From the NCBI RefSeq assembly GCF_947503875.1, contig NZ_CANNFH010000009.1:654-64653 (forward strand): DNA of 64,000 nt, written 5' to 3'. The notes beneath the pieces were generated by a model. The model saw nothing but the letters and a program-made list of their open reading frames with translations. It searched no databases and was not told the DNA's origin. Below, in pieces: positions 1,714 to 52,783 of the stretch. The stretch's first letter is position 1, and every line of letters starts with the position of its first letter. The stretch comes from an uncultured Polaribacter sp. GTDB lineage: Bacteria > Bacteroidota > Bacteroidia > Flavobacteriales > Flavobacteriaceae. A program made the position numbers and the translations under genes.

Positions 1714-1735
1714 AATATTTACTTTTTAAAAAACC

Positions 1736-7169: not shown

Positions 7170-7198
7170 CTTAATAGTATTAAAACTGCCTTATTATC

Positions 7199-28400: not shown

Positions 28401-31400
28401 TAAAGTAAGGGTTACAGAACCGTTTGCGATATCTGTTACAGAAGGTGTGTAAGTGGCATTACTTACATCATTCTGATTGCTAAAAGTTCCTGTACCTGAA
28501 GACAACCAAGTTGCTTGAGAAAAATTACCTGCAGTTGCAGAAGTAGTTGTATACGTTGTATTACCACAAATGGTTGCATCATTTCCTGCCTCTACAATTG
28601 GCTTTTCTACAAAATCTAAAGTAATAGAATTTGTGGTTGATGAATTACAATTAGAAGGAATTCTTGCTGCTTTTAAGGTTAAAACAACACTGCCACTTGC
28701 AACATCTGCTGCTGAAGGAGTATAAAAATTAGCTGTGGTTGTATTGTCAGGTGTAGTATCTGTAAAAGTACCACTACCACTACTTGTCCATTTTAAAGTA
28801 TCAAAATCTATTGCAGAAACATCTGGAATTTCAAAAGGAGCTGTTTCCGAACAAACAGCGACAGATGGGTTGATAACTGTAATACTTGGTATTTTATTTA
28901 TGTCTAAACGCATTTCACTTACCGCATCTACAGTACAGGGACTGTCTTTAAGTGCGGTTAAGGTAAGCTTTGCGTAACCTCTACTAATATCTGTAACACT
29001 TGGCGTATAGGTTGGTCTTAATGTATTTCCGCCAGTAAAGCTTCCACCTCCTGAACCTGCAGACCAAATTACATTTCCACTAATATTAGTTGCAGTGGCA
29101 GTAGTTATTTCAAAATCTTCACCTTCACAAATAGTAGCATCTACGCCTGCATCTGCCGTAGGGTTTGGTATTATCGTTACCGTTGTTGAAACAGCTGTAG
29201 AATTTCCTGTACAAGGACCTTCTGGTTGTCCAACAATCGTAAAAGTAATAGTACCTGTTTCTGATGCTGAAGATGTATAGGTTGGGTTTAATGTATTTTC
29301 GTTTGTAAAAGTACCAGAACCTCCAGTTCTTGTCCAAGAAACTCCGCTTGCGTTAGAAGATGTACCGTTTAAAGTAATACTTTCTCCTTGACAAATAGTT
29401 TGTGCCAAACCAGCTGTAACCACTGGCTTTTTTTGAATATTAATTGTTACAGTATCATTTTCTGGATCGCAACTCGTTTGAGATCCTGTAATAGTAAAAG
29501 TAACCGAACCATTATCAATATCACTTGGAGAAAAAGTATATATAGGGTCTTCATCATTGGGGTTATCAAAAGAACCTGCTCCTGTACTAGTCCAAGTAAC
29601 AGAATTTACATTAGAAGCAGTTCCGTTTAAAGTTACAGTTGGTTGAGATTCGCAAATAGTTGTGTTGCCACCTGCATCTACAATTGGTGCCGCATTTATT
29701 TTATAAATAAAAGTTTCTGTAGCAGGAGTTCCGCAGGGAGAAATGGGATTTACAGTAACAGTAAAAGTAATACCAGTATTAAAATCTGTCTCAACCGGTG
29801 TATAAATTGGAGTTGCTGAGTTTTGAGTACCATTAAAAGAACCACCACCGTTAGAGGTTGACCACAGAATAGTACCTGGATTCTGAATATTTGCAGCTAA
29901 ATTTAAAGGTGTTGTTAAACCGGCACAAACAGTTGCATCTGCTATTTCATCTATTGTTGGGTTTTTTTCTATTGATAAAATAGTTTCACTAAAAGAAGTA
30001 GCGCAAGGTGAATTCCCGGTTCCTGTTAAGGTAAGGGTTACCAAGCCCAAATCTTTGTCATTTATACCAGGTGTATACGTTGGTGTTAAAGAATTGGCGT
30101 CTATAAAGGTTCCATCTCCACTTGTAGACCAAGCAACAGAAACGGTATTAACATCTTTTGTAGCGCCTGATGGCACATATGGTTCGTTTTCACAAATTAC
30201 TGTTGAACTTGTACCAGCATTTACAATCGGACTTGGCACTATGGTTACCATTACTGTTGATGTACTTGAATCACAATTTGCTGAAGAGGTTGTTAAAATA
30301 AAAGGAATTCCTAAAGGATATAATGTATTTGCGATTAGAGCATCTGAAATACTCGGTGTAAAAACTGGGTTTGGTGTATTAGCTAAAGTTAAAGCACCAC
30401 TAATATCACTGGGCTTAGACCATGAGTAACTAGTTGCAAAAGTAGAATTTGAACCATCTAAGGTAATAGGATCTGTGCCACAACCCGAAATATCTGTACC
30501 AGCATTTGCTGTAGATTTACGGGCAATATTTATAGTTGTTTCTAAAAAAGGAATTTCATCTCCGCAAGTATCCGTAACAAAAAGTCTAACAATAGCTTCA
30601 CCACTTGTAATTGCAGATGTAGAAGGCGTAAAAGTTATTTCAGTTGGACTTAATATATTGACTTCTCCAGAAGAAGCAGGAACTGCCTCCCAACGAGTGC
30701 TTGAGTAATTTCCTGTAATAGTTGCTTCTAAATTAGTTGACATATCTGCATCACACATATCAATTGTTGTACCTCTATTTAAAGAAACTATTGGCGTTTC
30801 ATCAACCGTAATTGTAACACTATTCGATTTCGTACAACCCGTTGCTGTAATAGTTTCTGTTAAGGTAAAAGTAGTTGTTTGTAAAGGACTCACCTTTGGA
30901 TTTTCGCTTGTTGAAGATACTGTTGGAGCATTCCATGCATAAGCAGGTGAAGCTACCCAACTATAGGTAGAACCTGTTTTTGAAGCAGCACCAATATTTA
31001 TTTCTTGTCCTTCGCAAATAGTAGCTGCTGCTGCTACAGCTGCTGTTGGCAGAGGTTGCATTGTAACTTCAAAAGTTTGCTCTACTATACAACCTGCTGT
31101 ATTGGTAACTTTTAGCGTGTATTCTTCGGATGCTGTAATGGTTCTTGTAATAGCTGAACTTGTTTCAGTTAAAATTCCACCTGATAAAGACGACCACTCG
31201 TAGTTATAGCCAGGTATTGGTGTTACTTCTCCAAAAGTTACGGTATTACCAAAACACACTTCTTGATCTGAAATTAGAGGTACATTAGGTACTGGATTTA
31301 CTTTAATTTCTATTTCTGATGACCTTATTTGACTACAAACACCATTACTACTTACGGCTCTGTAAAAAGTATTTTGGGTTAAAATACCAGTATTATATGT

Positions 31401-33587
31401 TGTTGAGGTGTTGGTGGTATCTAAAATCCAACTTCCCTGGTTTCCTGTGGTAGAAGACTCCCAGCCAATTACAACACCTGCTTGGCCAGTTAAAGAAATA
31501 TCGGTTGCTGTATTTGCACAAATTTCTGAATCTGAAACAGCCAAGGTACCACTTGCTCCGGGTATATTAGTTGTTACTGCAATTACATCAGAAGAAAATT
31601 CACCACAAATACCAACAGTCGAAGAACTAAGAATTGCTCTAAACTCTACAGTATTATTTATTACGGCTGTTGTATAAGTGTTTGCACCAGAAACCACCAT
31701 ATCATTATACGTATCCCAAGAATCCCCACTATTTGTTCTAGATTCCCATCGTATTAAAGAACCTTGTGTGATAGAAAAATCGATATCTATGGAACTTCCT
31801 TGACAGATTGGACTAGAAAAGCCCGCAGCCATTACAGGCGAAGAAAATACGGGTTCTTTTTCTACAATAATATTTTCAATTGATGTAAAAATTGTTTCGC
31901 AAGTACCGTTTTCTAACAACACTCTAAAATCAGTAGACTCTAGCAATAAACCAGAGGTATAAGTATCTGTTGTGTTTGAAATTGAAGTCCAAACACTACT
32001 ACTAACTTTTTTAGATTGCCATTCTACAATAGTGCCCGAAAAACGCTCTAATTTTAAACTTACGTTAGTATCTTCACAAACAATGCTTGATGGAGAAGTA
32101 ACTATTAAATTACCCGTATCAATTGGGCTTGCTATGGTTACTAGAGTCGCAGCAGAGGCAACCTCTGTACAAGTTTCATTTTTAACCATTGCTCTAAAAG
32201 AGGTATTTCTATCTAAAGGTAATGTAGTATAGTTATTACTGGCAGAACCAGAAATACCTACCCAATTCACACCATTATCAGTAGAATATTGCCAATACGA
32301 AACGGTTCCGTTAGAGCCTGTTAATTCTAATTCTGTAGTCGCATTTTCACAAATAGTTCTACCACCAATTGCAGTACCCGGAACAACTGTTTCATTTACA
32401 ACAATCTCTATTGCATTTGAAGTCGCTTCTGTACAAGTATCACTTTGTACAATAGCTCTATATTTTGTAGTAGTTACAGGGCTTACCGTTAAAGGTTCTG
32501 TGGAGGTTGTAAGTGTATTCTTAGTGAGAAAATTGTCTGTAGAACTTTCCCATCTTAAGACATTTCCGATTGAATTAGACAACGAAATTGTTGTGTTATC
32601 TCCTTCACAAATAGTTGATGCTGTTGCATTAATTGCACCTGGATTACTAGCAGGATTTACTGTTATTGTAAAATCAAAAGGCTCCCCTTGACACCCTTTA
32701 TAGGTGGGTACTACTGTTACAGTTGTTGTTTTCTTATTTGCAGTATTATTTATAGCTTTAAAAGCAGGAATTGGAGAACCAGAACCAGAGAAAGCTAAAT
32801 TACCTATATCCTCATTAGTTCTAGACCAAGTATACGAAACCCCTGTGCCACTTGTAGGTGAACTTGCTGTTAACACGATGTCTGAAATAAAGGTGTCATT
32901 ACAAACTTCGATATCTGATATAGCATTTAAAACTGGCTTCGGATTTACTGTTATTGCAAAAGAAACTAGTGCTCCTTCACAGCCATTAACTATCGGTGTT
33001 ACAGTAACAGTAGATTTTATTGGTTCTAAAGTAGTATTTATTGCTGTAAAAGTTGGTATCTCAGAAACATCTGAATTCGATGTTGCCAGACCAATATCTG
33101 TGTTACTATTCGTGTAGCTAAACGTTAAAGTACCTAATGATGGTGTTACAGAAGATAACGAACCGAATAAAGAAATAGCGTTAAAAGTATCGCCAGCACA
33201 AATATCTACATCGTTCAAAACGGTTGTTACATTGGGTGGAATGTAGCTAAACTGAGTTCTAATTTGCGTACCATCTACACTAAAAAAACCAGAAGTAGCA
33301 TTGCAAGGCACCTCTACTTCTATTTCATTTACACTCTTAAACGTAACTGCAGTAGCTGGAATAGCAACACCTCCCAAAGTAACTTTATCTCTATCTGTAT
33401 CTAAAAAACTACCTGAAGAACTTGTTAGCTTTACAATAGTACCAGAAGTACCAGTTATTGGATTAATGGAGTTAAAAGAAGGTGTATTTATTTTATTTAA
33501 AAAACCTGCATTTGCAGTAACTGTTGACAATAATAATACAAACAAAAAGGTGTACCTTTTTATTTGTGCTGGGGGGAATTTTAACAC
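16470..33587 (-). CDS. Giant (5705 aa) SprB-like surface adhesin with T9SS type B (gliding motility-associated) CTD
   Basis: Signal peptide, IPT/TIG-like start, dozens of ~95-aa W..G.G.F....P.YTP...D...G.V.LTL repeats, PKD-like units, and C-terminal FPTAFSPNNDNINDLF..YIYD..G..VYE..WNG. Confidence 0.9.
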   Translation of the reverse strand: MLKFPPAQIKRYTFLFVLLLSTVTANAGFLNKINTPSFNSINPITGTSGTIVKLTSSSGSFLDTDRDKVTLGGVAIPATAVTFKSVNEIEVEVPCNATSGFFSVDGTQIRTQFSYIPPNVTTVLNDVDICAGDTFNAISLFGSLSSVTPSLGTLTFSYTNSNTDIGLATSNSDVSEIPTFTAINTTLEPIKSTVTVTPIVNGCEGALVSFAITVNPKPVLNAISDIEVCNDTFISDIVLTASSPTSGTGVSYTWSRTNEDIGNLAFSGSGSPIPAFKAINNTANKKTTTVTVVPTYKGCQGEPFDFTITVNPASNPGAINATASTICEGDNTTISLSNSIGNVLRWESSTDNFLTKNTLTTSTEPLTVSPVTTTKYRAIVQSDTCTEATSNAIEIVVNETVVPGTAIGGRTICENATTELELTGSNGTVSYWQYSTDNGVNWVGISGSASNNYTTLPLDRNTSFRAMVKNETCTEVASAATLVTIASPIDTGNLIVTSPSSIVCEDTNVSLKLERFSGTIVEWQSKKVSSSVWTSISNTTDTYTSGLLLESTDFRVLLENGTCETIFTSIENIIVEKEPVFSSPVMAAGFSSPICQGSSIDIDFSITQGSLIRWESRTNSGDSWDTYNDMVVSGANTYTTAVINNTVEFRAILSSSTVGICGEFSSDVIAVTTNIPGASGTLAVSDSEICANTATDISLTGQAGVVIGWESSTTGNQGSWILDTTNTSTTYNTGILTQNTFYRAVSSNGVCSQIRSSEIEIKVNPVPNVPLISDQEVCFGNTVTFGEVTPIPGYNYEWSSLSGGILTETSSAITRTITASEEYTLKVTNTAGCIVEQTFEVTMQPLPTAAVAAAATICEGQEINIGAASKTGSTYSWVASPAYAWNAPTVSSTSENPKVSPLQTTTFTLTETITATGCTKSNSVTITVDETPIVSLNRGTTIDMCDADMSTNLEATITGNYSSTRWEAVPASSGEVNILSPTEITFTPSTSAITSGEAIVRLFVTDTCGDEIPFLETTINIARKSTANAGTDISGCGTDPITLDGSNSTFATSYSWSKPSDISGALTLANTPNPVFTPSISDALIANTLYPLGIPFILTTSSANCDSSTSTVMVTIVPSPIVNAGTSSTVICENEPYVPSGATKDVNTVSVAWSTSGDGTFIDANSLTPTYTPGINDKDLGLVTLTLTGTGNSPCATSFSETILSIEKNPTIDEIADATVCAGLTTPLNLAANIQNPGTILWSTSNGGGSFNGTQNSATPIYTPVETDFNTGITFTVTVNPISPCGTPATETFIYKINAAPIVDAGGNTTICESQPTVTLNGTASNVNSVTWTSTGAGSFDNPNDEDPIYTFSPSDIDNGSVTFTITGSQTSCDPENDTVTINIQKKPVVTAGLAQTICQGESITLNGTSSNASGVSWTRTGGSGTFTNENTLNPTYTSSASETGTITFTIVGQPEGPCTGNSTAVSTTVTIIPNPTADAGVDATICEGEDFEITTATATNISGNVIWSAGSGGGSFTGGNTLRPTYTPSVTDISRGYAKLTLTALKDSPCTVDAVSEMRLDINKIPSITVINPSVAVCSETAPFEIPDVSAIDFDTLKWTSSGSGTFTDTTPDNTTTANFYTPSAADVASGSVVLTLKAARIPSNCNSSTTNSITLDFVEKPIVEAGNDATICGNTTYTTTSATAGNFSQATWLSSGTGTFSNQNDVSNATYTPSVTDIANGSVTLTLALTGLAPCLDVVSDTMELSFEPIPVITTVGTDAICNTSTNYSVSGTSILNDYMPVSLANWTTSGTGTFTATTDPLNPKYTPSAADLTQPNIILTLTIDPVSPCITPQTETIVLDVIPAPIADAGVNLSECDVPFTITTATAIANTYSSLQWVSSSGGTFVGGINNTINPTYIPSVTDIATGTVDLTLTAFPINPCSVASVSTITVNIQASPEITVTNQAPICEDAENITVTGTNIVNASNLLYTSSTGTIINNETTLTPTVTPSATDIANGEIILTVIATPLGNCTSVSETISIPVVKNPIVNAGASKTFCEGESITTFDATASNVAAGNLQWTSNDPDGIFLTSPKGLITTYIPGDREIANGTVQLTLTGTATSPCAENTTDTVVYTLLKKPVLTVSPTVVSICEDENYQVPEDQVNITNFNNVESIVWSASSPGTIATGSTLDLTPTFTPSAADIANGFSELTISATPIGACATAIVSEKIRVNIGKNPTIDVSQNTLVFCEGEDKQLQALFANADPSTYNWEIISGTGSISSTTINTPIYTPALDSDIVVIRVSVTGNAPCANTVSQEFTLNKIAIPQVSLPENTTTVCSTENTINLTALVTNISASTTYLWSSSTNTAAFGNASALTTSYTFSAADKVAGSVTLTLTAQSDEDCMLTDSDAIVVTINQAPAVNITNLATEICEGDVYNATATASNASSYLWEKVGVSDGTFISGENTTDAKYIPGPNDILNETFTLKFTATGDATCAAVSEETTVAIVSQPTVTFDVDNGTNCATEPFVISGVNASNYSTLSWSSLSTAPGTFSNVGIENPIYTPSATEIAANSPITLRLTLQPKTACNGVVSIFKDFTLNLLPTQTVNAGLDMAICEGDVVNLNGATTNNVSQFWTSSSSSTPFATTNLASYTPSQLDISNGNVTLTLHAISNSNCAEVTDTVVVQIAKQPEADAGATVTICEDESYTLLAGEATVNNAASVLWTLSGPGEITLGTETTLTPEFIPEPGQTGNVTLTLTANAAPACASLSDVIATKTIRITPKPKVTIPSNRSICEGDNLQLLDADINASDFTTLKWVSSNGLGSFVTQTNGNTTYTPANNQTGVVTLSLVAIPLDTACSSVKKDLILTIHPNAQVFAGTDVSICEDETVVIQDADINYGNGVFNWSIAGPASITSGTENTLTPEIVPNVGASGLVTLTLEAAGSSECPSSKSDSVTISINALPIVSAGAPQEICEGETEVQLNGTVSNATSFNWSHSGDGTLVATANPLKPKYVPAATDFINSFGISTVNIFLEAFGNNTCGNTTATTTITLQAKPKAYAGVDMVACVGDVISLDAATASNFNTLLWETSGNGIFDYTTAGGQIKPTYKLGTDDTTEVTLTMIATPNGVCTANTTDEIVISINQLPTITATTDELTFCGNTFTLPSIVSVANSTSYNWTNTTAVANKSIVVNPNSLTPTISPTAEEVANGFISLTVTAQPKTACVGVVTKTIKVNLTPVFTVDAGNPKTICATDNPIVLNFGATTSSSTGDYYWTSNGAGTILSSSLNTLQPQYQPGPNETGTIEFTLHANNVAPCSGEITDTVNLVIDPLTTVDAGLDIAVCEGSSINITNAKATNYTSLQWIASSDILGNTISDGSFSPASATVLNATYSPSTADIARGFVYLTLQSTNTCGTVSDYLRVNISEGAGVFAGNNATTCTGDSYEITDASATNTSSVVWASAQNANGTSLASYVAGSFSDINATNPVYTPSASDLNQGYVYLILTGNGESSCSIDNSFMRLDFVKTPSLVAQDVAICVDTPSVTLNTTALDYDTITWSVFSGSGTISAGANSETPVFTANISSTITTPQTTILKAVLTPKNGCDTADTVVEEVVITTQPLPTVNAGDDGFVCYTPGQPIGLFTINNTSFENASSVEWSTSGNGVFSSGFPTTYQSLTNTCSETVQLTLTATGMGACGTKTVSDVVNLTINCAAPNLGVITSSSTQNVCQGTTVTYQVPANSLVTDYQWSVPSGATIQSQSGNTITVEYSENAVSGIVSVAAKNSCGVGELSTLPITIAPIPKVTTISGPSVICESLQDYMFTAGVIADATSYIWTLTDGSTITTLDNILTIVGSTTLPSGNLSVKGVNSCGAGIDSLAFFVEVVSKPTLTSTISNSAICSGETFNYQPTSVAGASFSWTRSQQSGIEGTALGNGAVQDVLINTTSSVKTVTYQIEIITTTGCSNIELITVPVNPAAQLTNAPIDSEICSGSVFSFTPASDISGTISWSRAAIFGIQEPTTSGSGTIFENLTNTTANVITVNYELTLPTTTEGCNNTEVISVEVLPTPAVATAISGALNVCIPSADNTYTVAAIPNAITYDWRLSDGTIRNTNSNSISLDFTTLTTSETLEVRGVSSCGNGTFSAPFTITGINLPTITNTPSATSICSNELFSFTPTSATANSFIWERQFVNGIATPVSSGSGSINEILVNETNTPITVTYVYTITSPESCKNTVSINIIVKPIPQIINTPTTSICSGSTFNFVPEISTSGTETTAVNWSRVASFGIIGSSDTGVGAISETLENTTNAVIPVTYNLTLKNDTSGCQITETIVVDVYPLATADIESSVNTCLNGADSFVNFKAENGIAPYTFTYTVNGGSEKTITTNGTSSSVQLSLFSNALGAYTYRLLSVKDSGPNTCVNTFATPKEISIDIFAKPVLNITNPATICASETVNLTDPVYTAGSDINLNYTYWEDVNATVPFLLASTASEGIYYIKATNANNCFTIKPIEVKENPLPLVQIENNESEIFVCEGSELVLNASGAQNYQWYTKDSTGTTSILSTGDVYTYTPAVTQIIYLQGTDANGCTNTAQVAVVLKPAIKASIEGVNDYEVCLNTENVSITFKASNGTAPYTFTYLVNNNVKEVTTLPDNNSVAITISTDIAGVFNLELIDVKDSSLANCNNPILQTPKKATVTVFDSEILPVANTEVFQSVCVNEPINPIYFSAVSPILSAYVEGLPSGVTSSFAGNTLTISGTPTVAGTFNYTVSSSVLNGACNSTYAGVITVNSGGSITPLVDTEINQSICSCATIEPILFELSADTFGANVTGLPSGVTWEIENNIVLISGSSCATAGDYNYTVTVQGNCSSSTTSGLISITDPNSIFLINGNQDEEVCNNSILAPIEYQANPGQTLKLIGVLPQGVTFVADTATGTAKITGTPERSGTFSYTITSDSECSDFLEGTIEVIADPFISLMSGSINQESCIENQIEDIRYKISENNTNISFTPSLPAGISYSENNGQLVISGAATEKSISTIYTIGISNNCGVTVTTDFKLEILEKPSIVLDSNFGATTQSVCQNAEINPIQFTVMPIGTTIDLALLPSFITATEIDPSIGLWELTGAPKNTGIFSFNVATINNSNCSDSLPIVIENLYAALDVTLESGTENQILCNFNLPIEDLVYKITGAITDINSINVVGLPNGVSYTKTITATGVLLTISGTATETGVFNYDITFDTCGAIESGSLRISSIIAMNSTVNQISCTDELGSIEINIYGGLPFIDDNGGVFYNIEWTGPNGFRQNQTEINGLVPGDYTVNITDALGCVLATPETFTITPAVPININLLNTTLANGCNGELGCANLEYSGGTGIYTDFLLEISNPQTQEWNVKIPDNNNYFNMCGLDVGVYRISVTDSKSCTTEPFIFTIENDNQFTIEQVVVEQSLCDGNTGLILVDVNSADTNLTFTLNGIALPANALGNNLYELEVSNVADTNATLEISNSSGCKISEEIIFTTLAPDFEFTSFEFENFGFFEVNSSIEFTNLSFIDTSIYDPNVYSYIQWDFDDNTPFKTFYYPENIASNKDGENLKTVFHTYQNDGIYNVKLTLFNASGCETTITKTIFIGKGSTVMFPTAFSPNNDNINDLFRPKHLGFSEITMYIYDSMGNMVYEFTSADALSLESDDTWGWNGIAPLNEQPKTGNYRCYFRGKTIDNKVVEKNIRFLLIK

Positions 33588-34450: not shown

Positions 34451-34519
34451 AGTGAGCCCTGAAGGATTCGAACCTTCGACCGCCTCCTTAGAAGGGAGGT
34501 GCTCTATCCAGCTGAGCTA
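34451..34519 (-). repeat. att direct repeat (displaced 3' portion of tRNA-Arg, lacking the 5' acceptor strand)
   Basis: 69 bp identical to 52708-52776. Confidence 0.97.
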
Positions 34520-34554
34520 CTAATTACCAGTCACTTAACCATTAATTAATATTT

Positions 34555-34578
34555 AATGTGTCAAAAGTGTGCCAAATG
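34555..34578 (+). repeat. Candidate integrase arm-type sites (left)
   Basis: aatgtgtc-aaaagtgtgcc-aaatg matches the AAATGTGTGTC tandem at 52539-52574. Confidence 0.55.
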
Positions 34579-35637
34579 AAAGTAATTTATCCAAGAGTAA
34601 AGATTAATTCTTCAAGTAGAGTTTACGTAGTATTTTATCAAAACAACAAACGCTATAGATTGTTTAATGGTTCTAAGATTAATTCTGAAATCTACCCTAA
34701 CTCCTATCCTATTTCTAAACGAATTGAAATGGGGAACCTTTTAGCATCAGAAGTATATAAATTTTTGATAAGTGGTTTAACTCTAGAACAGATTAAAGTA
34801 TCCAATCTTATAAAGTCTAATATGACAGATAAGGATTACTTAACAGTAGCGTTAGAAAACAAACTAAAAGAAAACTATACCAAAAAATATAAAGAAATGT
34901 TACAGTTTATTTTTAACAGACTTATTGATGAACTGAATGACTCCCCTATTCAACCTCTGCATATAGAGACAGTATTAAATAAATACAATTCAGAAAGTTC
35001 CTACAACACCTATAGATTGAGGTTATGCTCATTGATAAATGAAGCAAGAAAAATAGGTATGACTTCCAATCCAATGCAAAGAATAAAGTCAAAAAGAACA
35101 AAAGCTCAAATGCACAAACCCTTTAAAAATGTCAATGTAATACTTGAAGCTATTAAAGCATATAATAAACATCTATACCTATGCTGTTTAATGACCTATG
35201 GATGCCTTTTAAGGCCTCATAGAGAAATAAGAGAACTTACTTGGTCAGACTTTTCAGATGACCTCAAATACATTCATTTGTCTGGTAGTAGAAATAAATC
35301 TGGTAGGAATAGAATTGTTCCTGTACCAAAGTATGTTAGAGATATTCTTGTAAAAGGAGAACGGCATCATAATATCTTTTCAGGTAAACCCAAACCTTTA
35401 AATAAAGACTATTTTAAAACCCTTTGGAGCCGTTTTAAGAGACAATCAAACATACTTGAACAAGGACAAACCCTATACTCTTTTAGGCACTCAGGAGCTA
35501 TAGAGATCTTTAAAAGAACTGGTTCTATAACCAAGCTACAGAAAGCTATGGGACATTCTTCTATAAATGTTAGTTTAACCTACTTGAGGGGTCTAGAAAT
35601 AGCTGAATTGAAGGAGGAGGATATGCCTATTTTTTAA
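34576..35637 (+). CDS. Tyrosine recombinase / site-specific integrase
   Basis: LLRPHREI (R), NKSG (K), YSFRH, MGH and LTY catalytic pattern. The start is either ATG 34576 or GTG 34558. Confidence 0.93.
   Translation: MKVIYPRVKINSSSRVYVVFYQNNKRYRLFNGSKINSEIYPNSYPISKRIEMGNLLASEVYKFLISGLTLEQIKVSNLIKSNMTDKDYLTVALENKLKENYTKKYKEMLQFIFNRLIDELNDSPIQPLHIETVLNKYNSESSYNTYRLRLCSLINEARKIGMTSNPMQRIKSKRTKAQMHKPFKNVNVILEAIKAYNKHLYLCCLMTYGCLLRPHREIRELTWSDFSDDLKYIHLSGSRNKSGRNRIVPVPKYVRDILVKGERHHNIFSGKPKPLNKDYFKTLWSRFKRQSNILEQGQTLYSFRHSGAIEIFKRTGSITKLQKAMGHSSINVSLTYLRGLEIAELKEEDMPIF
35563..35637 (+). repeat. Integrase 3' tail, copy 1 (20-bp core 35563-35582)
   Basis: 63/75 nt identical to 38133-38207. Confidence 0.95.
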
Positions 35638-35690
35638 TGAAAAAATTATGTAAACTATTGAAGGAGTAATAGTATGAAATTTAATTTTAC

Positions 35691-37640
35691 TTAATTTTTA
35701 ATACATCTTATACAAACACCTTTATCACCATATGAAAATTCTTTTAGAGAATATTTAGGATTACTTTTTTCAAATGCTACTTTATAATTTGAAAGCCATA
35801 AAGAGGTACTTTGACCAAAATTATACCAAACACCGTCAGCACTAATAGCTCCATATAACTTTAAATTAAAGCCATTTGGTACTCCTTCTAATTGCCATTC
35901 GTAAATACTAGACATTAAATTTCTTACTGGAGCATCCGCATAATCTAAATTACTAATTAGTATTTCCCAATCGTTTAATGTTGGAATCCTCCAACCTTGT
36001 GGGCAAATATTATAGTTAGCATTAACAACAGTACTATTATAGTAAACCCCACCTTCTATGCTAGAATATAAACTATTATTTACATTATCATTTGAATACC
36101 AAAATTGACTTGAAGTTGATTGTGTTAAATTTGTACCATCATTAAAGCGAGTTACTTTTAAATTTTCTGCCATCCATACTTGATTCCCTAGAGTTACTGT
36201 ATTATAAGTATTTTGATCAATATCAGTAACACTTCCATAATTAAAAGGTGTTGTAAATTGAAGATTATCAGTATGTATGCCATATGCAATAATCCCTTCT
36301 TCATTTTTTGCAAATGCTCTGTAAAAATAATTAACATTTGGTGATAATTGACTGAAATTTGCATTAAACTCACCAGTCCCTGTCCCACTTGTAACTATCT
36401 GTCTTGGAAGATTACTAGCAAGATTTAAACCCTGATAATATTCGCTAACAATAACACCTCTTTCAATAATAGCAAGACTTCCATCATTATTAACACTGTT
36501 ACCAATTATTTCTACGCCATTAAAAGTCAAATTTGTATGCTGACCATTTGTAACAGTGAGATCATCTGTTAATGTTTCAAAGGAAATAATTTCACCATAT
36601 GCTACCCCTACGCTATTTTCTGCAAAAGCTCTAACATAATAAATTGTTCCCGGAGTTAAATTTTCTATTGATAGTACACCATCTCCTTCAATAATATTAT
36701 TATTACCATTTACAGAAAGTAACTGTTGGTTTCTACTATAAATAATACCAGATCTAACAATATCTGATCCTAAATTTGTAATTTCTAAACCTGAATTTAC
36801 AGAATAATAAGATATTTCTAAAACTGGTTTTGTTATTACTGTTGGTAATACATCACTTGTTGTGAAATTAAATGTATTTCCATAAAAAGATCCAAAACTA
36901 TTGGTTGCGTATGCTCTATAAAAGTAATTAGTTAAAGGTGTTAAATCTGAAATACTACTAGTAAAACTTGAAGCTCCTGGCCCCTCATTTGTTTTAGTAA
37001 TTAAATCTACACTAGGATTGGGGTCTTCACTCCAAACAACACCTTTAGCCGTTATACTTGCACCACCATCTGAACCAATATCACCTCCAGAAATTCCACC
37101 ATCACTATTAATTTGGTAAATCTCAACTGTTGTAATTTCTATTTGATTAACGTTACTATTATTACTTGTAACAGACCAATTTACCCCATCCCAAACTAAA
37201 ATATCTCCAGCATTAATACCATCAGGAATACTAGCTGATGTATTACCACTATTTGCAGCATACAAAGCGTATGGAACACTTAAAAGTTGTGTGGTTCCCA
37301 TAGCAACATAACCATTTCCGGTATCTAATTCAATACCTAAATAATAACTCCCCAATGACCAGTCTAATTCTGAAAATACTCCATTATTGGCAGTCCCTTG
37401 TCCAATCACAAGGTTAACCTGCCCTAAATCATCTGTTGGCACGTAGTGCGTTTCTGTGTATATTGGCACTGCTGTTTGAGAGCCCTGAATGATGTTAAAC
37501 TTAAAATAAACATTAGTATTTACAACTAAATCACCTGAACTATTTCTTACTGTGGCTTGGTAATTAAACCCCTGTGGAGCTTGGGCATTTAGGCTAAGTC
37601 CTAAAAAAAGAACTATTATAATGAATAGATAGTTTTTCAT
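35691..37640 (-). CDS. Secreted FISUMP (Fibrobacter succinogenes major paralogous) domain protein with FN3-like repeats
   Basis: Signal peptide, QAPQGFNYQATVR..LLSVPYALYA N-domain, three RAYA/RAFA FN3-like repeats, and YNTVTLGNQVWMAENLK..CPQGWRIPT..W..RCIKN. Confidence 0.88.
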   Translation of the reverse strand: MKNYLFIIIVLFLGLSLNAQAPQGFNYQATVRNSSGDLVVNTNVYFKFNIIQGSQTAVPIYTETHYVPTDDLGQVNLVIGQGTANNGVFSELDWSLGSYYLGIELDTGNGYVAMGTTQLLSVPYALYAANSGNTSASIPDGINAGDILVWDGVNWSVTSNNSNVNQIEITTVEIYQINSDGGISGGDIGSDGGASITAKGVVWSEDPNPSVDLITKTNEGPGASSFTSSISDLTPLTNYFYRAYATNSFGSFYGNTFNFTTSDVLPTVITKPVLEISYYSVNSGLEITNLGSDIVRSGIIYSRNQQLLSVNGNNNIIEGDGVLSIENLTPGTIYYVRAFAENSVGVAYGEIISFETLTDDLTVTNGQHTNLTFNGVEIIGNSVNNDGSLAIIERGVIVSEYYQGLNLASNLPRQIVTSGTGTGEFNANFSQLSPNVNYFYRAFAKNEEGIIAYGIHTDNLQFTTPFNYGSVTDIDQNTYNTVTLGNQVWMAENLKVTRFNDGTNLTQSTSSQFWYSNDNVNNSLYSSIEGGVYYNSTVVNANYNICPQGWRIPTLNDWEILISNLDYADAPVRNLMSSIYEWQLEGVPNGFNLKLYGAISADGVWYNFGQSTSLWLSNYKVAFEKSNPKYSLKEFSYGDKGVCIRCIKN

Positions 37641-38113
37641 TGCTTAATAATTTTATAGGTATTAGTTTGTTTATCTTCTGTTGTTACGTTTACAAGGTAA
37701 ATACCTTTTGAATAATTTTCTATATTAATAGGTTCTCCTTTCACCACCTCTTTTTGTAGTAATACTTTTCCTGTTAAATCAGAGATAAATACTTTAAAAT
37801 AATTACTACTAGGGTGGGATATGAAAATTAATTCTTTAATTGGGTTTGGATAAACCTTTACTAAAAGATTTGTTGTTGGAGTTTTTATACTTAAAACGTT
37901 AAGATTAAAAGAGGGATAGTAACCATTACCTAATTGAAAACTACCGTCTTCAGAAGTCATACCTCCAACCACAATCTCCCCAGCAGTATAACTCAACTTT
38001 ATGTTACTATTTGAAAGAGACCCTCCTAGTGGTGCTAAAACCTGCTTGGAAATAGACTGAGCAGATATTTCAAAAGAAGCAAGGATTAAAAATAAGTAGA
38101 GTATATTCTTCAC
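37637..38113 (-). CDS. Small T9SS type A sorting domain protein
   Basis: Signal peptide; VYPNPIKE...GIYLVNV...YKIIKQ CTD; 4-nt overlap with the FISUMP gene; GTG start. Confidence 0.85.
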   Translation of the reverse strand: MKNILYLFLILASFEISAQSISKQVLAPLGGSLSNSNIKLSYTAGEIVVGGMTSEDGSFQLGNGYYPSFNLNVLSIKTPTTNLLVKVYPNPIKELIFISHPSSNYFKVFISDLTGKVLLQKEVVKGEPINIENYSKGIYLVNVTTEDKQTNTYKIIKQ

Positions 38114-38124
38114 AAGATTTTTTT

Positions 38125-38132
38125 CAAATATA
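38125..38132 (-). promoter_or_regulatory. -7 promoter element TATATTTG of the cassette genes, abutting the 20-bp core
   Basis: Matches TAnnTTTG 12 bp before the GTG. The same tttcaaatataat context occurs upstream of the 38197-38595 gene. Confidence 0.6.
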
Positions 38133-38207
38133 ATAAATGTTAGTTTAACCTATTTACGAGGTTTAGAAATAGCTGAACTAAAAGAAGAAGATATGCCTAT
38201 TGTTTGA
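38133..38207 (+). pseudogene. Integrase 3' tail, copy 2 (displaced; encodes INVSLTYLRGLEIAELKEEDMPIV*)
   Basis: 20-bp core identical to copy 1, then 12 differences: 10 synonymous, 1 F/V and 1 stop-to-stop. Confidence 0.93.
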
Positions 38208-38595
38208 CAAGTGTAACGTTAACATTATTTGAACCATTAACATTTAGCCATTTTATTGAATTTTCAGATACTTTTTCAAATTCATAACGATATTCACTAC
38301 CTGCAATAGTAGTAATTGTTAAATATCTTGTATTAGATATTTCTTCATATACATTAAAATCAGTTACTTGACTATAAGTTTGCTCGTAGCAAGTGGTAAC
38401 ATTTCCAGAGGCTAAACAAAAATCACTATCTCTAAATTCAAATCCTGAAGTTACTGGAACATTTGGAATTATCCAAACTCCCTGAATCCAGCTAGGTGGA
38501 TTATAATTGTTGTCTGACATTGCACTCTCACTATCATCACTACTGGTACATGAAAATAATATAGCTAAACTAAACAATAAGATTATTTTTTTCAT
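38197..38595 (-). CDS. Hypothetical lipoprotein
   Basis: MKKIILLFSLAILFSC lipobox; its stop overlaps the displaced integrase tail. Confidence 0.8.
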   Translation of the reverse strand: MKKIILLFSLAILFSCTSSDDSESAMSDNNYNPPSWIQGVWIIPNVPVTSGFEFRDSDFCLASGNVTTCYEQTYSQVTDFNVYEEISNTRYLTITTIAGSEYRYEFEKVSENSIKWLNVNGSNNVNVTLVKQ

Positions 38596-38846
38596 AATAT
38601 TTTTTTTTCAAATATAATATTTTTATTTGAATTTGAATTTGAATAAATGTACTGTAAAACCTGAAATAGAGTATATTAAATTAACAATTATAGCTATATA
38701 AATATATATAGAAGTGAAATTTTTATTTTTTAACTTTACCTAATAAAATTGTTTCTTAGTGATTCCCATAGAGGGGGACATACGCTTTTAATATGTATAT
38801 GGGGAGTTGTAAAAGGACACCCAACTTAAACTTAACACACAATAAA

Positions 38847-39383
38847 ATGAAACACCTTTTTCATAGTATATGCCTTCTTTCTGATAACAAAAGTTTTGCT
38901 TTAGAATGCTGGAATCTTACAGAGGATAACCTTTGGCTATTAGCTCATTTTGGACATTTAGAAATAATTTCTAAAAAAATAATATATTTAAAATTGCCAA
39001 GAAAATTAGAAGGCTCTATAGATAAAAGTAAAATGCATGTGCTTAGAAAAAACACAAACAATACTTTAGACCTATTAGAATATCTTACAACCAGAAAAAT
39101 TTATATTTATAGCATAGAGATTGAATTTAAAAATAAAACTAGAATAAAGCTTTCTAGCAATTTGTATTTTAATATAAATACAAACACTATAGAGGAAAGA
39201 AATAGATTAATAGACTTGTTTATGATTGTTTCTGGAATACCAAAGTTTGATATAAATATTTTAAAACCAAATTACCACTATTATTTAGAATATAAAGTAG
39301 CCCCTATAGAAAATGGTTTAGCTATGCCAAATGAGTTTTGGAGCCAAGAAAATAGAGTAGCTTGGTCAAAAGTTAGTTTTTAA
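38847..39383 (+). CDS. Hypothetical protein
   Basis: Open frame of 178-196 aa with no motif recognised; ATG 38847 follows an A-rich leader. Confidence 0.55.
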   Translation: MKHLFHSICLLSDNKSFALECWNLTEDNLWLLAHFGHLEIISKKIIYLKLPRKLEGSIDKSKMHVLRKNTNNTLDLLEYLTTRKIYIYSIEIEFKNKTRIKLSSNLYFNINTNTIEERNRLIDLFMIVSGIPKFDINILKPNYHYYLEYKVAPIENGLAMPNEFWSQENRVAWSKVSF

Positions 39384-39504
39384 TTTATGGTTATAGCTAT
39401 ATACTATAATAGCCATCTTTAGTTGATGGGAGTTTTTTAGGTCTCAATAGCTTTAAGATGATAATATTAAAGATTTTGATATATTTAACTCAAAATAAAT
39501 CAAG

Positions 39505-41939: not shown

Positions 41940-42284
41940 TTAATCTTTAATACAACGAACAGAACTTCCTCTTGCTCTTACGTCAAAACCAGAGTTATTA
42001 ATATTAACATTAGTACTGGTAAAATCTAAACTATTTGCTCCATTATCACTTGGCGAGCTACTCCAATAAATGCCTATAATACCAACATTGCTTTCTGTAT
42101 AGACATAATCATTACGGCTACCTCTCATTGTTAATTTAAGAGGAGATGCATAAGCACCAGCCGCATCATTACTACTCCAACTTTGGTATTCTTCTGTCCA
42201 TTCAGCAATTGTAGGCAAACGATAACCTTGTGGGCAAGGACAATTTAGTCCATCTACACCTTGCCATAAATTATCGTTTTGAGA
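41940..42284 (-). pseudogene. 5'-truncated FISUMP-type gene fragment
   Basis: SQNDNLWQGVDGLNCPCPQGYRLPTIAEW...GIYWSSS...GSSVRCIKD*, with an in-frame stop just upstream and no signal peptide. Confidence 0.8.
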
Positions 42285-42768: not shown

Positions 42769-45700
42769 TTATTCAATTAGCCCTTTTTCTAATACTTTTT
42801 CTATGTAGGTATGTTTATCTTCATCTTGAAAATAAACATTGGCATTATGATAATGTTCAATAGTTTCATCATCAGACCTTCTATATTGCATATTCTTGAA
42901 AGAAGTGTTAGAAATAATAAAGGAATTTAAGAAGGTTTTTTTATCGTCTAATTTAGCTTGAAACTCCTCTTTTATAGTTTTATGTAATCTTACTTTAGGG
43001 TGATTCCAAACATCTTCTAGCATATAAATTCCTTTTGGGTCTACAAAACTTAGATATTGTTTATCTCCTACAATTTGCCATAACATAAAATCAGGATAGA
43101 AATTCTTAGTTTCAGTTAGAAAACCAATACCAGTTTTGCTTTGATTTCTAAGTAGATATACTTTTTTGTCATTGAAATAACTCTTATTAGCATTATAGTA
43201 CTGCTTCAAATCATCTACAAAGTCCTTTTCTCCTTCATTTAACTGTACAGGAGAAACTTTCACAATATCCTTATATATCTTGTCATTCATATAGAGTAAA
43301 GGATAATAAAGATGGTTTCCATAGTCAAAACCTACAAAAGAGCCTCTGTTTAATTCAAAGTCTTGTTGGAGCATATCATCTTTCTTAACAAGCTCTTTAA
43401 ACTCTAAAACATTTCTAATAATATCTGTTTCATTTTCTTCAACAGAAATACTATATTCTTCTGTAAAATTAGGATGACTTTCTTCAAGAATATCAACTTC
43501 AATATGTCTTGCTAAGTATTTGTTTTTAATGCTTAAGTAAAATTTTTCAGTATAGTTTTTAAGTAGTGCAATCACTAACTCTTCCCATATAAATACTCTA
43601 TTAAAACTTGATGGCTCTAAGTCTGATGTTGGTATTGAAATCTGATACCAAGTATCATCATTCATTATTTCCTGAAGGTTTTCTTTTGTGACTGATAAGT
43701 TATACCAACTTCTTTCATTTTTATATTTCTGAATTTCAAAAAAGACTTTATCCCAATCAATAAAGGCTAAATTATGAGGCTTTAACGTTAATCCTACATC
43801 TTTACCATCTACCACATTAGTAGTTGATTGGTTACTACTAATCATTTGAATTTTTGGGTACCAATCTAACTTAATATCTAAATACCTTGAATTCTCTGTA
43901 ATTTCTAAAACTGTTATATTTTCTTTTTTGTAGTTTTCAGCTACACCTTCTTTTGTTTTGATTATTTTTAAACTATCTCTAGTTTTAGAATACCTGTTTA
44001 TAGTTGGTATTGTTATGGTTTTAAAATTACCTTCATTTGTTGGTAACCCTTCTTCTTCAAGGTATTCTTTAAACTGCTGCATATAATCAGCTTTAATACC
44101 AAATATGTTTAAGGTCTCTAGTGTAGGTATGTATTTAGGTGTTTTTTCTTTTGGTCTTTGATAATCATCTAATCTAGAACTACGTTTTAAACTCATGTTA
44201 AAACCTTTTAAACGTACACCTCTACCAAATAATTGAATTATCTGACTTCCTTCTCCTTTACCAATATTCATCAATCCCATGGTGCTTACTCTCCATGAAG
44301 ACCAACCTTCAGTAAATTTTTTAGAACCAATTAATAAATTTATGTTACTATCTTTTTCATTGATATTATGAAATAGACTTTTTGAAAATTCTTTCTCCAT
44401 ACCCAATATACCAACTGCCATACATAGTTTATGAAGTTTAGCTTCATCCCCTACATTTATAACACCAAAATATTGGTCTGTATCTCCAATTCTTAAACCA
44501 AGTTCTCCATCTGCACCTTTTAGGTTGTCTAGGTGTACATTGGCACCAACAAGACTTGTGTTAAATACTTTTTGAAGTATATCAGTATAAAGTAAATCTG
44601 ATTCAATTTTATTTTCCTTTAGGTAATCAAAAGAATTTGAAAATATAGATGCTCCATTCTCATCATTTAAACCTGCATTACCAGTTAAAATTTGATTGAT
44701 ATGATTTTTAGAATTACTTGGGTCTTTTATAAAATCTGAAATGAATTTAACAATGGTAATTACATCAGATAGCTCTAACTTCTTTTTGTTTCCAAACTCA
44801 TCTGTTATGGTCTTGCTACTTACAGAGTTCACTTTTCCTCCAACAAATATCCATAATGGTTTTGCTAGTTTGTAAACATCCATTTTAGATGAATTTTGAT
44901 TGTATACTAACTGTTGCTGGTAATAACCAAGTAAACACGCTGTTAAATACTTTCTTAAATACTCGTCATTAGTATCATCCTTTATGTTTAGAATCTTATA
45001 ATCTTTACCATATCCATCTTTATAAAAATACTTGTAGCTATAATCAAATAGAATAGCCTTACTGTACTCTTTAAATAAGATTTCTTTTTTCTTTCCTGAA
45101 GCTGCACTTATGGCTTGACCAAATGTTGCAGAATACTCAAAAGCAAAACCGTTTTCACTTAATAGGTCTCTTCTTTTTTTCCATTCATCACCACTAGCTC
45201 CTCTATGTCCTTCATCAACAAGAACAAGGTTGTTTTTTTCAAAAGCGTCTACAGCTACAGTTTTATCTCCACTATCTTCTGCTAGTTTACTTATTTCTAT
45301 AATCTCAACCATTTCCCCAGAAAATAAAGCTCCTGAAGACTTGCTAAATATTTCTGCTTTTATGTTAGAGGCTGCAAACTCATTTAAATGCTGATTAGAT
45401 AAACCTTCATTAGGCGTAACCAATAATACTTTGTTAAAGTCTTTTTTGCCATACTTTTTAGCATAGTGCAAATACTGTTTAATGTTTACATGAAGTAACA
45501 ATGTTTTACCACTTCCTGTAGCAGACCAAATTGCTATTTTACTTAATTCATCTACAGTAAAATAGTCTGATACATAATTATACTCATTAGGGACACTATT
45601 GTCTAAAGGGTCATTAAAAGCATCTACAAACTGATTTAACTCTGCCAATAATAAGTTAGGATTAGCAAAATATTTATCGAGATAAATTTCTATAAACAGT

Positions 45701-46005: not shown

Positions 46006-46022
46006 GTTATTGTTTGGTTATA

Positions 46023-49079: not shown

Positions 49080-49108
49080 ATTTTTTAATGTGTGCTTGCT
49101 TATACCTT

Positions 49109-49285: not shown

Positions 49286-49296
49286 AATTTAAATTT

Positions 49297-52574: not shown

Positions 52575-52709
52575 ATTATAATTATTTAAAAATAAAAACT
52601 TAAATTTACAATGCGTTAAGTGATAACAATAGAAGTATTGGATTGTTGTAAACCCTTATTAATAAAAGGATATAAACAAAAAACCACCACATTCCTGTGA
52701 TGGTTTAAG

Positions 52710-52783
52710 TGAGCCCTGAAGGATTCGAACCTTCGACCGCCTCCTTAGAAGGGAGGTGCTCTATCCAGCTGAGCTAAGAGCCC
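52710..52783 (-). tRNA. tRNA-Arg (UCU)
   Basis: Cloverleaf GGGCTCT...; anticodon loop CTTCTAA; GGTTCGAATCC T-arm; 74 nt. Confidence 0.96.

What the first reader, a model, noticed from the sequence alone, without database searches (positions are those of the whole stretch)
38133..38207. Displaced integrase tail shows purifying selection: exchangeable C-termini including the catalytic Tyr
Seen: after the core, the copies differ at 12 of 55 nt. Ten changes are synonymous (tac/tat, ttg/tta, agg/cga, cta/tta, ttg/cta, aag/aaa, gag/gaa x2), one is F/V at the last residue, and one is TAA/TGA. The identity ends within the codon of the putative catalytic Tyr (SLTY). Inference: both tails evolved as functional integrase ends in different elements, so this is not a recent local duplication that decayed. 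Each insertion or excision would swap the C-terminal peptide carrying the nucleophile, and only cassettes bringing a correct tail keep the integrase active. That would be a built-in selection or licensing mechanism.
Basis: partly seen in the sequence, partly recalled or inferred. Interest (0 to 1): 0.7.

Follow-up and report, generated by a model that had tools for sequence, protein, structure and literature searches.

The report
Integrase-tail repeats bounding mobile gene cassettes
The 75 bases are a second, still gene-like copy of the last 25 codons of a neighbouring integrase gene, marking the far edge of a 2.6-kb gene cassette inserted into that gene's end; many marine Flavobacteria carry the same layout as long cassette arrays, an integron-like gene-capture system I could not find described.

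Summary
Observation confirmed. Window 38133-38207 repeats the last 75 nt of the tyrosine integrase gene (34558-35637). The first 20 nt are identical. After them 12 of 55 nt differ: 10 synonymous, one F/V, one TAA/TGA (pN/pS 0.03, P about 1e-6). The Tyr in SLTY (Y342) aligns with the catalytic Tyr of XerA and HP1 integrase.

This is not a local oddity. In 212 related loci I found 526 such units, 403 of them displaced from an integrase body. They lie in direct orientation and separate about 300 short cassettes (median 656 nt). Cassette genes mostly read towards the integrase, often from a Bacteroidetes -7 promoter box that abuts the unit. Identical cassettes occur in different genomes, orders and positions. 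Near-identical integrase bodies carry different tails and unrelated downstream DNA, with identity breaking at the left edge of the unit. Tail B directly ends a 51%-identical integrase in another Polaribacter.

So tails are exchanged and come from one pool under coding constraint. However, crossovers are spread over the unit, tails are not strictly co-inherited with cassettes, and catalysis by the integrase is inferred only. The "licensing" idea is untested. The system works like an integron but fails integron membership tests.

The parts
34451..34519 (-). Partial tRNA-Arg(TCT) copy, running from the D arm to the 3' end. It is one end of an island of about 18 kb, and the integrase gene starts about 40 nt away.
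   Evidence: 69 nt are identical to the intact tRNA-Arg at 52709-52783 (tRNA found). The same layout, a partial tRNA next to int, occurs in relatives with tRNA-Arg, -Met, -Asn and -Ala.
34558..35637 (+). Tyrosine integrase gene (359 aa; the true start may be the ATG at 34576). The catalytic Tyr is Y342, codon 35581-35583.
   Evidence: PF00589 match at E 5e-14. The alignment to XerA (4a8e) and HP1 integrase (1aih) places SLTY on the catalytic Tyr. Scores are far below the cut-offs of XerC, XerD and IntI.
35563..35637 (+). Working unit: a 20-nt block identical in both copies (35563-35582), then tail A (35583-35637) encoding ...YLRGLEIAELKEEDMPIF*.
35638..38132 (-). Inserted cassette of 2.5 kb. 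It carries two genes for exported proteins read towards the integrase: a 158-aa protein with a T9SS sorting tail (37637-38113) and a 649-aa FN3 / Fib_succ_major protein (35691-37640). It has no recombinase gene.
   Evidence: ORFs, Pfam. The same gene pair recurs in cassettes of L160, L164, L136, L178, L069 and L116.
38125..38132 (-). Bacteroidetes-type -7 promoter box (TATATTTG on the - strand). It abuts the displaced unit and lies 11 nt upstream of the GTG start of the 158-aa gene.
   Evidence: Sequence. The same box sits in the same register, distance 0 from the unit, in 99 of 269 cassettes. That it acts as a promoter is inferred from the known consensus TAnnTTTG.
38133..38207 (+). Displaced unit, the finding itself: the same 20-nt block (38133-38152), then tail B (38153-38207) encoding ...YLRGLEIAELKEEDMPIV*.
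   Evidence: In L056 the nearest homologue of this unit is the working end of an integrase.
38197..38616 (-). Next module: a 132-aa lipoprotein-like gene (38197-38595) whose stop overlaps tail B, with an identical 18-nt promoter context (box at 38609-38616). No unit lies beyond it.
   Evidence: (repeat family D18). Tail B plus this module is conserved as a block in L056.
52709..52783 (-). Intact tRNA-Arg(TCT), the other end of the island.

Best explanation
The integrase sits at one end of an 18-kb island integrated in tRNA-Arg. Its last 25 codons (INVSLTY...stop) double as an attachment unit of about 75 nt.

A 2.5-kb cassette has been recombined into this unit. It carries two genes for exported proteins and its own promoter, and reads towards the integrase. 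The integrase gene therefore now ends in one unit (tail A). A second unit (tail B) lies at the far edge of the cassette, still joined to the module that followed it before the insertion.

The same grammar builds arrays of up to about 18 units in marine Flavobacteriales. Cassettes are discrete, very diverse and shared between genomes in different orders. They occur both directly after the integrase and deep inside arrays.

Working and displaced tails belong to one pool that diverges almost only at synonymous sites. A unit that ends up joined to the integrase body must encode a working C-terminus: the nucleophile Tyr plus 17 residues.

Shown: the anatomy, the family-wide arrays, cassette sharing, the uncoupling of body and tail, the coding-type divergence, and the identity of the Tyr by homology.

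Inferred: that this integrase catalyses the exchange, in a Campbell-type reaction between its own 3' end and a unit on a cassette circle. Also inferred: that exchange starts near the left edge of the unit and the joint then moves or is repaired across the homologous 75 nt. That would explain why observed breakpoints are spread over the unit and tails are mosaics.
For: Anatomy in the window.

Family-wide arrays:
- About 30 of 79 integrase loci from genomes carry extra tails, and 65 of 66 extra tails lie on the integrase strand.
- In all there are 526 units in 212 loci, with 130 displaced units downstream of the integrase and 19 upstream.

Cassettes:
- There are 299 cassettes, median 656 nt. 295 of 330 ORFs lie on the strand opposite to int, and they fall into 220 protein clusters.
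- 130 cross-locus cassette pairs were found. Many are 97-100% identical with unrelated flanks.
- Cassette order is shuffled and a single cassette is present or absent between arrays.
- The same cassette is first in one genome and internal in others.

Body and tail uncoupling: and the L056 empty-site-like arrangement.

Coding-type conservation of displaced tails: 217 of 229 keep the Tyr, 196 have no early stop, and pN/pS is 0.23.

Units within an array are no more alike than units between arrays. This argues against local duplication and against concerted evolution.

Catalytic Tyr.
Against: - There is no direct evidence of recombinase activity.
- Shared cassettes usually carry neither flanking tail with them. 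Linkage decays gradually across the unit from the cassette side, and one clean event maps to the middle of the tail. A single fixed crossover, as in a classical tyrosine-recombinase site, is therefore rejected. Homology-driven exchange could produce the same pattern.
- The same integrase apparently also serves unrelated tRNA sites. I found no motif shared between the tRNA junction and the unit.
- Displaced tails show no decay gradient with distance from the integrase.
- The largest arrays (L034, L006) sit next to broken integrase genes.
- Detection by profile may favour well-conserved tails.
Confidence: 0.68

Rival explanations
1. The units are only portable stretches of homology. Cassettes are gained, lost and swapped by general or short-homology recombination between the 75-nt repeats, for example after uptake of array DNA from other strains or by slippage between neighbouring repeats. 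The integrase serves only the tRNA integration of the island. Displaced tails look coding because they keep exchanging sequence with working tails.
For: Breakpoints are spread over the unit and cluster at the identity blocks nearest the cassette. The L098/L006 event maps to +27 to +29. The large arrays L034 and L006 lie next to broken integrase genes yet hold cassettes 96-100% identical to cassettes in other genomes. Transformation is reported to drive cassette shuffling in chromosomal integrons as well (PMC12614218, title and abstract only, seen).
Against: The homology is only 75 nt at about 80-90% identity, with perfect runs of at most about 20 nt. That is a poor substrate for inserting hundreds of different cassettes, always in one polarity and always anchored at the 3' end of one integrase family. 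The left border of the unit is sharp, and a promoter box sits in a fixed register in 99 cassettes. Body/tail breaks cluster at -19 to -16 in several independent pairs. Units within an array are not homogenised.
Confidence: 0.25
2. One reading: tail exchange is an evolved licensing device. Each capture rewrites the catalytic C-terminus, so only cassettes with a correct tail keep the platform active.
For: Working tails are almost never defective: 1 of 99 lacks the Tyr and 1 of 99 has an early stop. Among displaced tails 5% lack the Tyr and 14% have an early stop. Bodies and tails are uncoupled.
Against: The same pattern follows passively from any attachment site that overlaps the 3' end of a gene, as with tRNA-targeting islands or e14 in icd. 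The exchanged peptides are nearly identical. Many crossovers fall to the right of the Tyr codon. No experiment bears on this reading.
Confidence: 0.12
3. Tail B is simply the remnant of a second, mostly deleted integrase gene left by tandem islands at the same tRNA. There would then be no cassette system.
For: Some displaced copies in relatives extend far upstream into the integrase body (query residues 4-17). Tandem islands also exist, for example the units upstream of int in L034 and L040.
Against: In the window, homology stops exactly at the unit border, where a promoter box abuts it, as in 99 other cassettes. No tRNA fragment lies between the two copies. About 300 short cassettes with opposite-strand genes cannot be integrase remnants.
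Confidence: 0.03

Closest known systems
Integrons (IntI, attI, attC-bounded cassettes; sedentary chromosomal integrons)
   Same: A tyrosine recombinase gene heads an array of short, discrete and highly diverse cassettes. The cassettes are separated by one repeated recombination unit and shared between genomes in different orders. The same cassette is found next to the recombinase gene in one genome and deeper in the array in another.
   Different: The recombinase is not IntI (22.5 bits against a cut-off of 265). The repeat is the coding 3' end of the recombinase gene, not a folded attC hairpin, and shows no significant single-strand fold. The landing site lies inside the gene's 3' end rather than upstream of it. 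Cassettes read towards the integrase, and many bring their own promoter box. The platform itself is a tRNA-integrated island.
Elements that integrate into the 3' end of a gene and bring a substitute end (e14 and phage 21 in icd of E. coli; tRNA-targeting islands); CIMEs and tandem accretion at ICESt1/ICESt3-type sites (from my own knowledge)
   Same: The insert restores the reading frame with its own copy of the gene's end. That copy differs mostly at silent sites. The displaced original end stays at the other junction. Integrase-less elements bounded by such sites can pile up in tandem.
   Different: Here the target gene is the recombinase's own gene, and the restored part contains its catalytic Tyr. 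The inserts are single-gene cassettes rather than phages or ICEs, and arrays reach more than 15 units.
rAID-1 arrays of gut Bacteroidales (Ross et al., bioRxiv 10.1101/471110)
   Same: A Bacteroidota tyrosine recombinase is followed by an array of low-GC accessory genes with repetitive sequences between them. The authors themselves call it integron-like.
   Different: rAID-1 is defined by co-directional downstream genes and non-coding intergenic repeats, and its cargo is immunity genes. Here 89% of cassette genes are on the opposite strand, the repeat is the integrase's coding tail, and the cargo is broad: T9SS-sorted proteins, SnoaL, DinB, HNH, hydrolases and many unknowns. Sequence relatedness of the two recombinases was not tested.
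SSV-type integrases of archaeal viruses (attP inside the int gene; from my own knowledge)
   Same: The attachment site lies within the integrase's own coding sequence.
   Different: Integration of SSV1 splits and inactivates int. Here the gene stays whole, because the incoming DNA supplies an equivalent end.

Membership tests
Integron | Integron-type integrase (IntI subfamily, TIGR02249) | tested here: not met
   NCBIfam TIGR02249 scores 22.5 bits against a cut-off of 265. XerA, XerC and XerD are also far below their cut-offs.
Integron | attC sites: imperfect palindromes recombined as folded single strands | tested here: not met
   Single-strand DNA folds of both window units on both strands give z-scores from +0.26 to -1.18 against shuffles. 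The unit is conserved as coding sequence.
Integron | Mostly promoterless cassettes, co-oriented and expressed from a common promoter (Pc) next to the integrase gene | tested here: not met
   295 of 330 cassette ORFs lie on the strand opposite to int. A -7 box abuts the next unit in 99 of 269 cassettes.
Integron | Array of discrete mobile cassettes adjacent to the integrase gene | tested here: met
Tyrosine recombinase / tRNA-island integrase | PF00589 catalytic domain with the conserved Arg..(His/Tyr)-x-x-Arg..His..Tyr residues | tested here: met
   PF00589 at E 5e-14. Alignment to XerA 4a8e and HP1 1aih shows LLRP, YSFRH, MGH and SLTY on the catalytic positions. The first His of HxxR is a Tyr here.
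Tyrosine recombinase / tRNA-island integrase | Island bounded by a tRNA gene and a direct repeat of its 3' part, with int next to one end | tested here: met
   A 69-nt perfect repeat of tRNA-Arg lies at 34451-34519 and within the tRNA at 52709-52783. The same holds in relatives.
3'-end-restoring integrative elements / CIME accretion | The insert lies within the 3' end of a coding gene, brings a substitute end that keeps the ORF, and the displaced end is left at the far junction | tested here: met
3'-end-restoring integrative elements / CIME accretion | The element carries its own integrase (phage or ICE type) | tested here: not met
   The two cassette genes are exported proteins with no recombinase domain. 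Only 2 of 150 cassette proteins scanned hit PF00589. This fits the integrase-less CIME type instead.
rAID-1 | Two or more co-directional genes downstream of the recombinase gene, with non-coding intergenic repeats (criteria in 10.1101/471110) | tested here: not met
   Cassette genes are mostly opposite in orientation, and the repeat is the coding tail.
rAID-1 | Recombinase at least 44% identical to BF9343_RS08045 | not tested
   The reference sequence was not fetched.
SSV-type integrase | Integration partitions the int gene into N- and C-terminal pieces | tested here: not met
   The int ORF is intact at 359 aa. 98 of 99 working tails are open up to the normal stop.

The most novel reading that the evidence does not exclude
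Marine Flavobacteriales possess their own analogue of the integron. It is a tRNA-borne platform whose integrase uses the last 25 codons of its own gene as the landing site for promoter-bearing gene cassettes. Every capture can therefore rewrite the enzyme's catalytic C-terminus. The pool of cassette tails is kept functional by repeated passage through that position, which would make the capture system self-policing.
Probability: 0.35. Interest if true: 0.85.

Novelty: new variant of a known kind. Interest (0 to 1): 0.75.

Why it matters
Integrons are the textbook gene-capture device, but they are essentially absent from Bacteroidota. This appears to be an independent solution. It is found in streamlined marine Flavobacteria, in about 3.5% of sampled family genomes and in many ocean metagenome contigs, and it stores hundreds of unrelated small genes, many for exported or surface proteins.

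Its attachment site is unusual because it is the recombinase's own catalytic tail. One stretch of DNA is therefore under selection both as protein and as recombination site. That gives a natural system for studying how such dual coding is maintained, how far strand exchange travels in a long homologous site, and how flexible genomes of ocean bacteria are assembled. The unit could also serve as a simple probe to harvest cassette cargo from metagenomes.

Tried and rejected
- Local duplication followed by decay is rejected. The differences are synonymous-biased, and units within an array are no more alike than units between arrays.
- A long target-site duplication at each insertion is rejected for the same reason. 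Only 3 of 143 adjacent unit pairs are at least 96% identical.
- A single fixed crossover at the 20-nt block, with the cassette carrying its left tail, is rejected.
- A fixed crossover at the stop-proximal end, with the cassette carrying its right tail, is also rejected.
- 'Crossed' sharing of tails, left in one genome and right in the other, gave no signal.
- An integron-like single-strand hairpin was not found.
- A decay gradient with rank from the integrase was not found.
- Circular cassette contigs were not found among the fetched metagenome contigs.
- The unit is absent from IMG/VR viral contigs.
- No motif is shared between the tRNA-side junction and the unit.
- No close relative with an empty site exists in the genus. 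The best integrase match is 88% identical, and 10 of 151 genomes have the family.
- Literature searches found no description of this system. Three searches failed on syntax.

Full report
**1. The observation**

Window 34558-35637 (+) is an open 359-codon tyrosine integrase gene (PF00589, E 5e-14). Its last 75 nt (35563-35637) recur at 38133-38207, 2570 nt downstream on the same strand.

The first 20 nt, ATAAATGTTAGTTTAACCTA, are identical in both copies. This 20-mer occurs nowhere else in the window, even with 3 mismatches, against 0.04 expected. The whole 3.1-Mb genome has only these two copies.

After the identical block, 12 of 55 nt differ. Ten changes are synonymous, spread over eight codons. 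One is TTT/GTT (F/V, last residue) and one is TAA/TGA. This gives pS 0.667, pN 0.018 and a ratio of 0.026. The probability of at least 10 of 11 coding changes being synonymous is 1.4e-6.

**2. The Tyr**

A HMMER alignment to solved recombinases puts MGHSSINVSLTY on LGHSNLSTTQIY of Pyrococcus XerA (4a8e) and on the equivalent stretch of HP1 integrase (1aih). The upstream Arg and the xxRH motifs also align. Y342 is therefore the nucleophile by homology, and 17 residues follow it. From general knowledge of Cre and lambda Int, the segment after the Tyr packs against a neighbouring protomer and controls cleavage. That would explain selection on it. This last point is established knowledge, not tested here.

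**3. Surroundings in the window**

- A 69-nt perfect copy of the 3' part of tRNA-Arg(TCT) lies at 34451-34519 (-), just upstream of int. The intact tRNA is at 52709-52783. The integrase therefore sits at one end of an 18-kb island.
- Between the two tail copies lie two minus-strand genes for exported proteins: a 158-aa protein with a T9SS sorting domain, and a 649-aa FN3 / Fib_succ_major protein. There is no recombinase gene.
- CAAATATA sits directly left of the displaced unit at 38125-38132. On the minus strand this is TATATTTG, the Bacteroidetes -7 promoter consensus TAnnTTTG, and it lies 11 nt before the start of the 158-aa gene.
- An identical 18-nt context precedes the next minus-strand gene, a 132-aa lipoprotein-like protein.

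**4. Relatives**

The integrase family is common in marine Flavobacteriales MAGs and single-cell genomes (79 loci). A tblastn search with the last 45 residues found extra tails in roughly 30 of these loci, and 65 of 66 lie on the integrase strand. L034 (a Polaribacter chromosome) has more than 15. Its inter-tail intervals each hold one or two ATG-started ORFs of 100-260 aa, nearly all on the opposite strand. The integrase always lies next to a partial tRNA (Arg, Met, Asn or Ala).

A pattern scan of metagenome contigs added 120 loci. A profile of the 75-nt unit then found 526 units in 212 loci. Of these, 123 are joined to an integrase body and 403 are displaced. Displaced units lie mostly downstream of int (130) rather than upstream (19).

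The unit occurs in 14 of 401 sampled Flavobacteriaceae genomes, mostly small ones. A reversed control pattern gave 0 matches. The integrase occurs in 10 of 151 genomes of the genus. The unit is absent from IMG/VR viral contigs.

**5. Are the tails coding-like in general?**

Among 229 unique full-length displaced tails:
- 217 keep the Tyr codon;
- 196 have no early stop;
- 160 stop at the canonical codon.

Their per-position conservation is the same as that of working tails, down to which third positions vary. pN/pS against the consensus is 0.23 for displaced tails and 0.13 for working tails. One caveat is that profile detection favours conserved copies. Tails within one array are no more alike than tails from different arrays (0.775 against 0.79), and only 3 of 143 adjacent pairs are at least 96% identical. 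Local duplication, long target-site duplication and concerted evolution are therefore excluded. Each tail appears to be drawn from a shared pool.

**6. Are tails exchanged relative to integrase bodies?**

Yes. Tail identity correlates only weakly with body identity (r = 0.25). Several pairs have bodies 96-98% identical over their last 300-400 nt, yet tails only 72-89% identical and unrelated downstream DNA: L058/L056, L045/L013, L014/L013, L070/L079 and L076/L066. The last 100-130 nt of the body are almost mismatch-free. In the informative pairs the mismatches then start at -19 to -16 relative to the Tyr codon, which is the left edge of the unit.

For the window itself, tail B's closest relative among 145 tails is the working tail of L056 (94.7%). 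Window 38133-39405 aligns to L056 directly after its integrase body at 80% nucleotide identity. The two integrases are only 51% identical in protein. Tail B plus its downstream module has therefore been joined to two very different integrases.

**7. Cassettes are discrete and mobile**

- There are 299 inter-unit intervals with a median of 656 nt (range 179-9567).
- 295 of 330 ORFs of at least 60 aa lie opposite to int, and they fall into 220 clusters at 40% identity.
- Pfam hits are scattered: Por_Secre_tail in 11 of 150, then DUF6090, SnoaL, Fib_succ_major, HNH, DinB, hydrolases and many without a hit.
- 130 cross-locus pairs are homologous over at least 80% of their length. Many are 97-100% identical with unrelated flanks on both sides.
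- Cassette order differs between arrays, for example L034 against L177. L006 has one extra 262-nt cassette between two cassettes that are adjacent in L098.
- The same cassette is first after int in one genome and internal in others.
- The -7 box abuts the unit at distance 0 in 99 of 269 cassettes.

**8. Where is the crossover?**

This is where the simple picture fails. If exchange always happened at the 20-nt block, a cassette would keep the tail on its left. If it always happened at the stop end, the cassette would keep the tail on its right. Neither holds.

For shared cassettes with unrelated neighbours, the left tail differs up to +35 to +51 in most pairs. The right unit starts to differ at -18 to +7 in most pairs. 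Relative to background, mismatches in the left unit fall from 1.5 at the block to 0.09 at +41 to +56. In the right unit they rise from 0.28 at the block to 1.0 at the end. The one clean single-event comparison (L098 against L006) puts the joint between +27 and +29.

Exchange points are thus spread over the unit, or heteroduplex across the unit is repaired in patches. I did not find a hairpin, a second palindromic site, or a decay gradient with rank.

**9. Interpretation**

The most economical reading is an integron-like platform. The integrase's own 3' end acts as the landing site, and cassette circles carry one unit. Exchange begins at or near the left edge and the joint migrates through the 75 nt of homology.

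A possible core is TTCAAATATA | ATAAAT | GTTAGTTTAAC. The unusually conserved third positions of AGT-TTA-ACC fit a DNA-level constraint there. This core is inference only.

The main rival is homology-driven exchange between units without the integrase. It explains the spread of breakpoints, and the large arrays beside broken integrase genes in L034 and L006. It fits poorly with the strict polarity, the sharp unit border and anchoring at one integrase family. I put about 0.6-0.7 on integrase catalysis and 0.25 on the rival.

The 'licensing' idea is not needed. Any site that overlaps a gene's end forces inserts to restore that end, as in e14 in icd or tRNA islands. Working tails are almost never defective (1 of 99 lacks the Tyr), while displaced tails are defective more often (5% lack the Tyr, 14% have an early stop). 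This is what passive selection predicts.

**10. Comparison with known systems**

- It works like an integron but fails the membership tests. There is no IntI (22.5 bits against a cut-off of 265), no folded attC, and the cassettes read opposite to int and often carry their own promoter box.
- It resembles integrase-less CIME-type accretion at the 3' end of a gene, except that the gene is the recombinase's own.
- rAID-1 of Bacteroidales is the nearest Bacteroidota analogue. It is defined by co-directional genes and non-coding repeats (10.1101/471110).
- I found no paper describing the present system.
- An earlier agent of this scan noted the same system in another genome (e1-4005560). That is not independent evidence, but I re-derived it here from the data.

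**11. Verdict**

The feature is a real member of a widespread and apparently undescribed cassette-array system. The mechanism and the adaptive claim remain open.

Noticed in passing
window 34520-34578, and upstream of int in L004-L192: Just before the integrase start codon, nearly all family members have two tandem copies of a CTGTCAAA-like word (window: GTGTCAAAAGTGTGCCAAATG). This may be an operator or an arm-type binding site. The partial tRNA always ends about 60 nt upstream.
   Followed up: partly
window 38688-39403: The 196-aa ORF (38793-39383, + strand, no family hit) is bracketed by a 13-nt direct repeat TTATAGCTATATA at 38688 and 39391. Homologues lie downstream of the cassette arrays, co-oriented with int, in 9 other loci (L056, L058, L022, L052, L021, L099, L178, L198, L025). 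It may be a conserved backbone or accessory gene of these islands.
   Followed up: partly
L034 17158-17270: Two tails are fused out of register at the word GGTTTAG, which occurs both inside the tail and at its end. This looks like the scar of a deletion between misaligned units.
   Followed up: no
L034 10001-11082; L006 947-1078: The integrase genes beside the largest arrays are broken. L034 is split into 64-aa and 289-aa ORFs, and L006 has an in-frame TAA in MGH*SINV. These may be frozen arrays or sequencing errors in long-read or single-cell assemblies.
   Followed up: no
L169 (OLHI01000043.1), oriented end near 6140: The contig ends in CTGTCTCTTATACACATCT..., a Nextera adapter. This is assembly contamination, so the apparent breakpoint there is an artefact.
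   Followed up: no
window 35691-38113, and L160, L164, L136, L178, L069, L116: The gene pair of the 158-aa T9SS-tail protein and the FN3 protein recurs in several arrays. The first 140-260 residues of the large protein are conserved, while its C-terminal parts vary. This may be a polymorphic surface protein family.
   Followed up: partly
window 41940-42218: A 92-aa ORF looks by eye like the C-terminal end of a Fib_succ_major-type domain (it ends ...SSVRCIKD, as the 649-aa protein ends ...VCIRCIKN). Pfam gave no hit. It is probably a gene fragment inside the island.
   Followed up: no
window 42769-52191: The rest of the island carries a large minus-strand operon: an SNF2 helicase (964 aa), an N6/N4 DNA methylase (1030 aa) and a ResIII-type helicase (1078 aa). 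It looks like a restriction or defence module, carried as cargo without a unit boundary.
   Followed up: no
window 16470-33587: A 5705-aa minus-strand ORF lies just outside the island. Its translation looks highly repetitive and starts with a hydrophobic, signal-like N-terminus. I ran no family scan on it. A CAAATATA box lies upstream at 33628.
   Followed up: no
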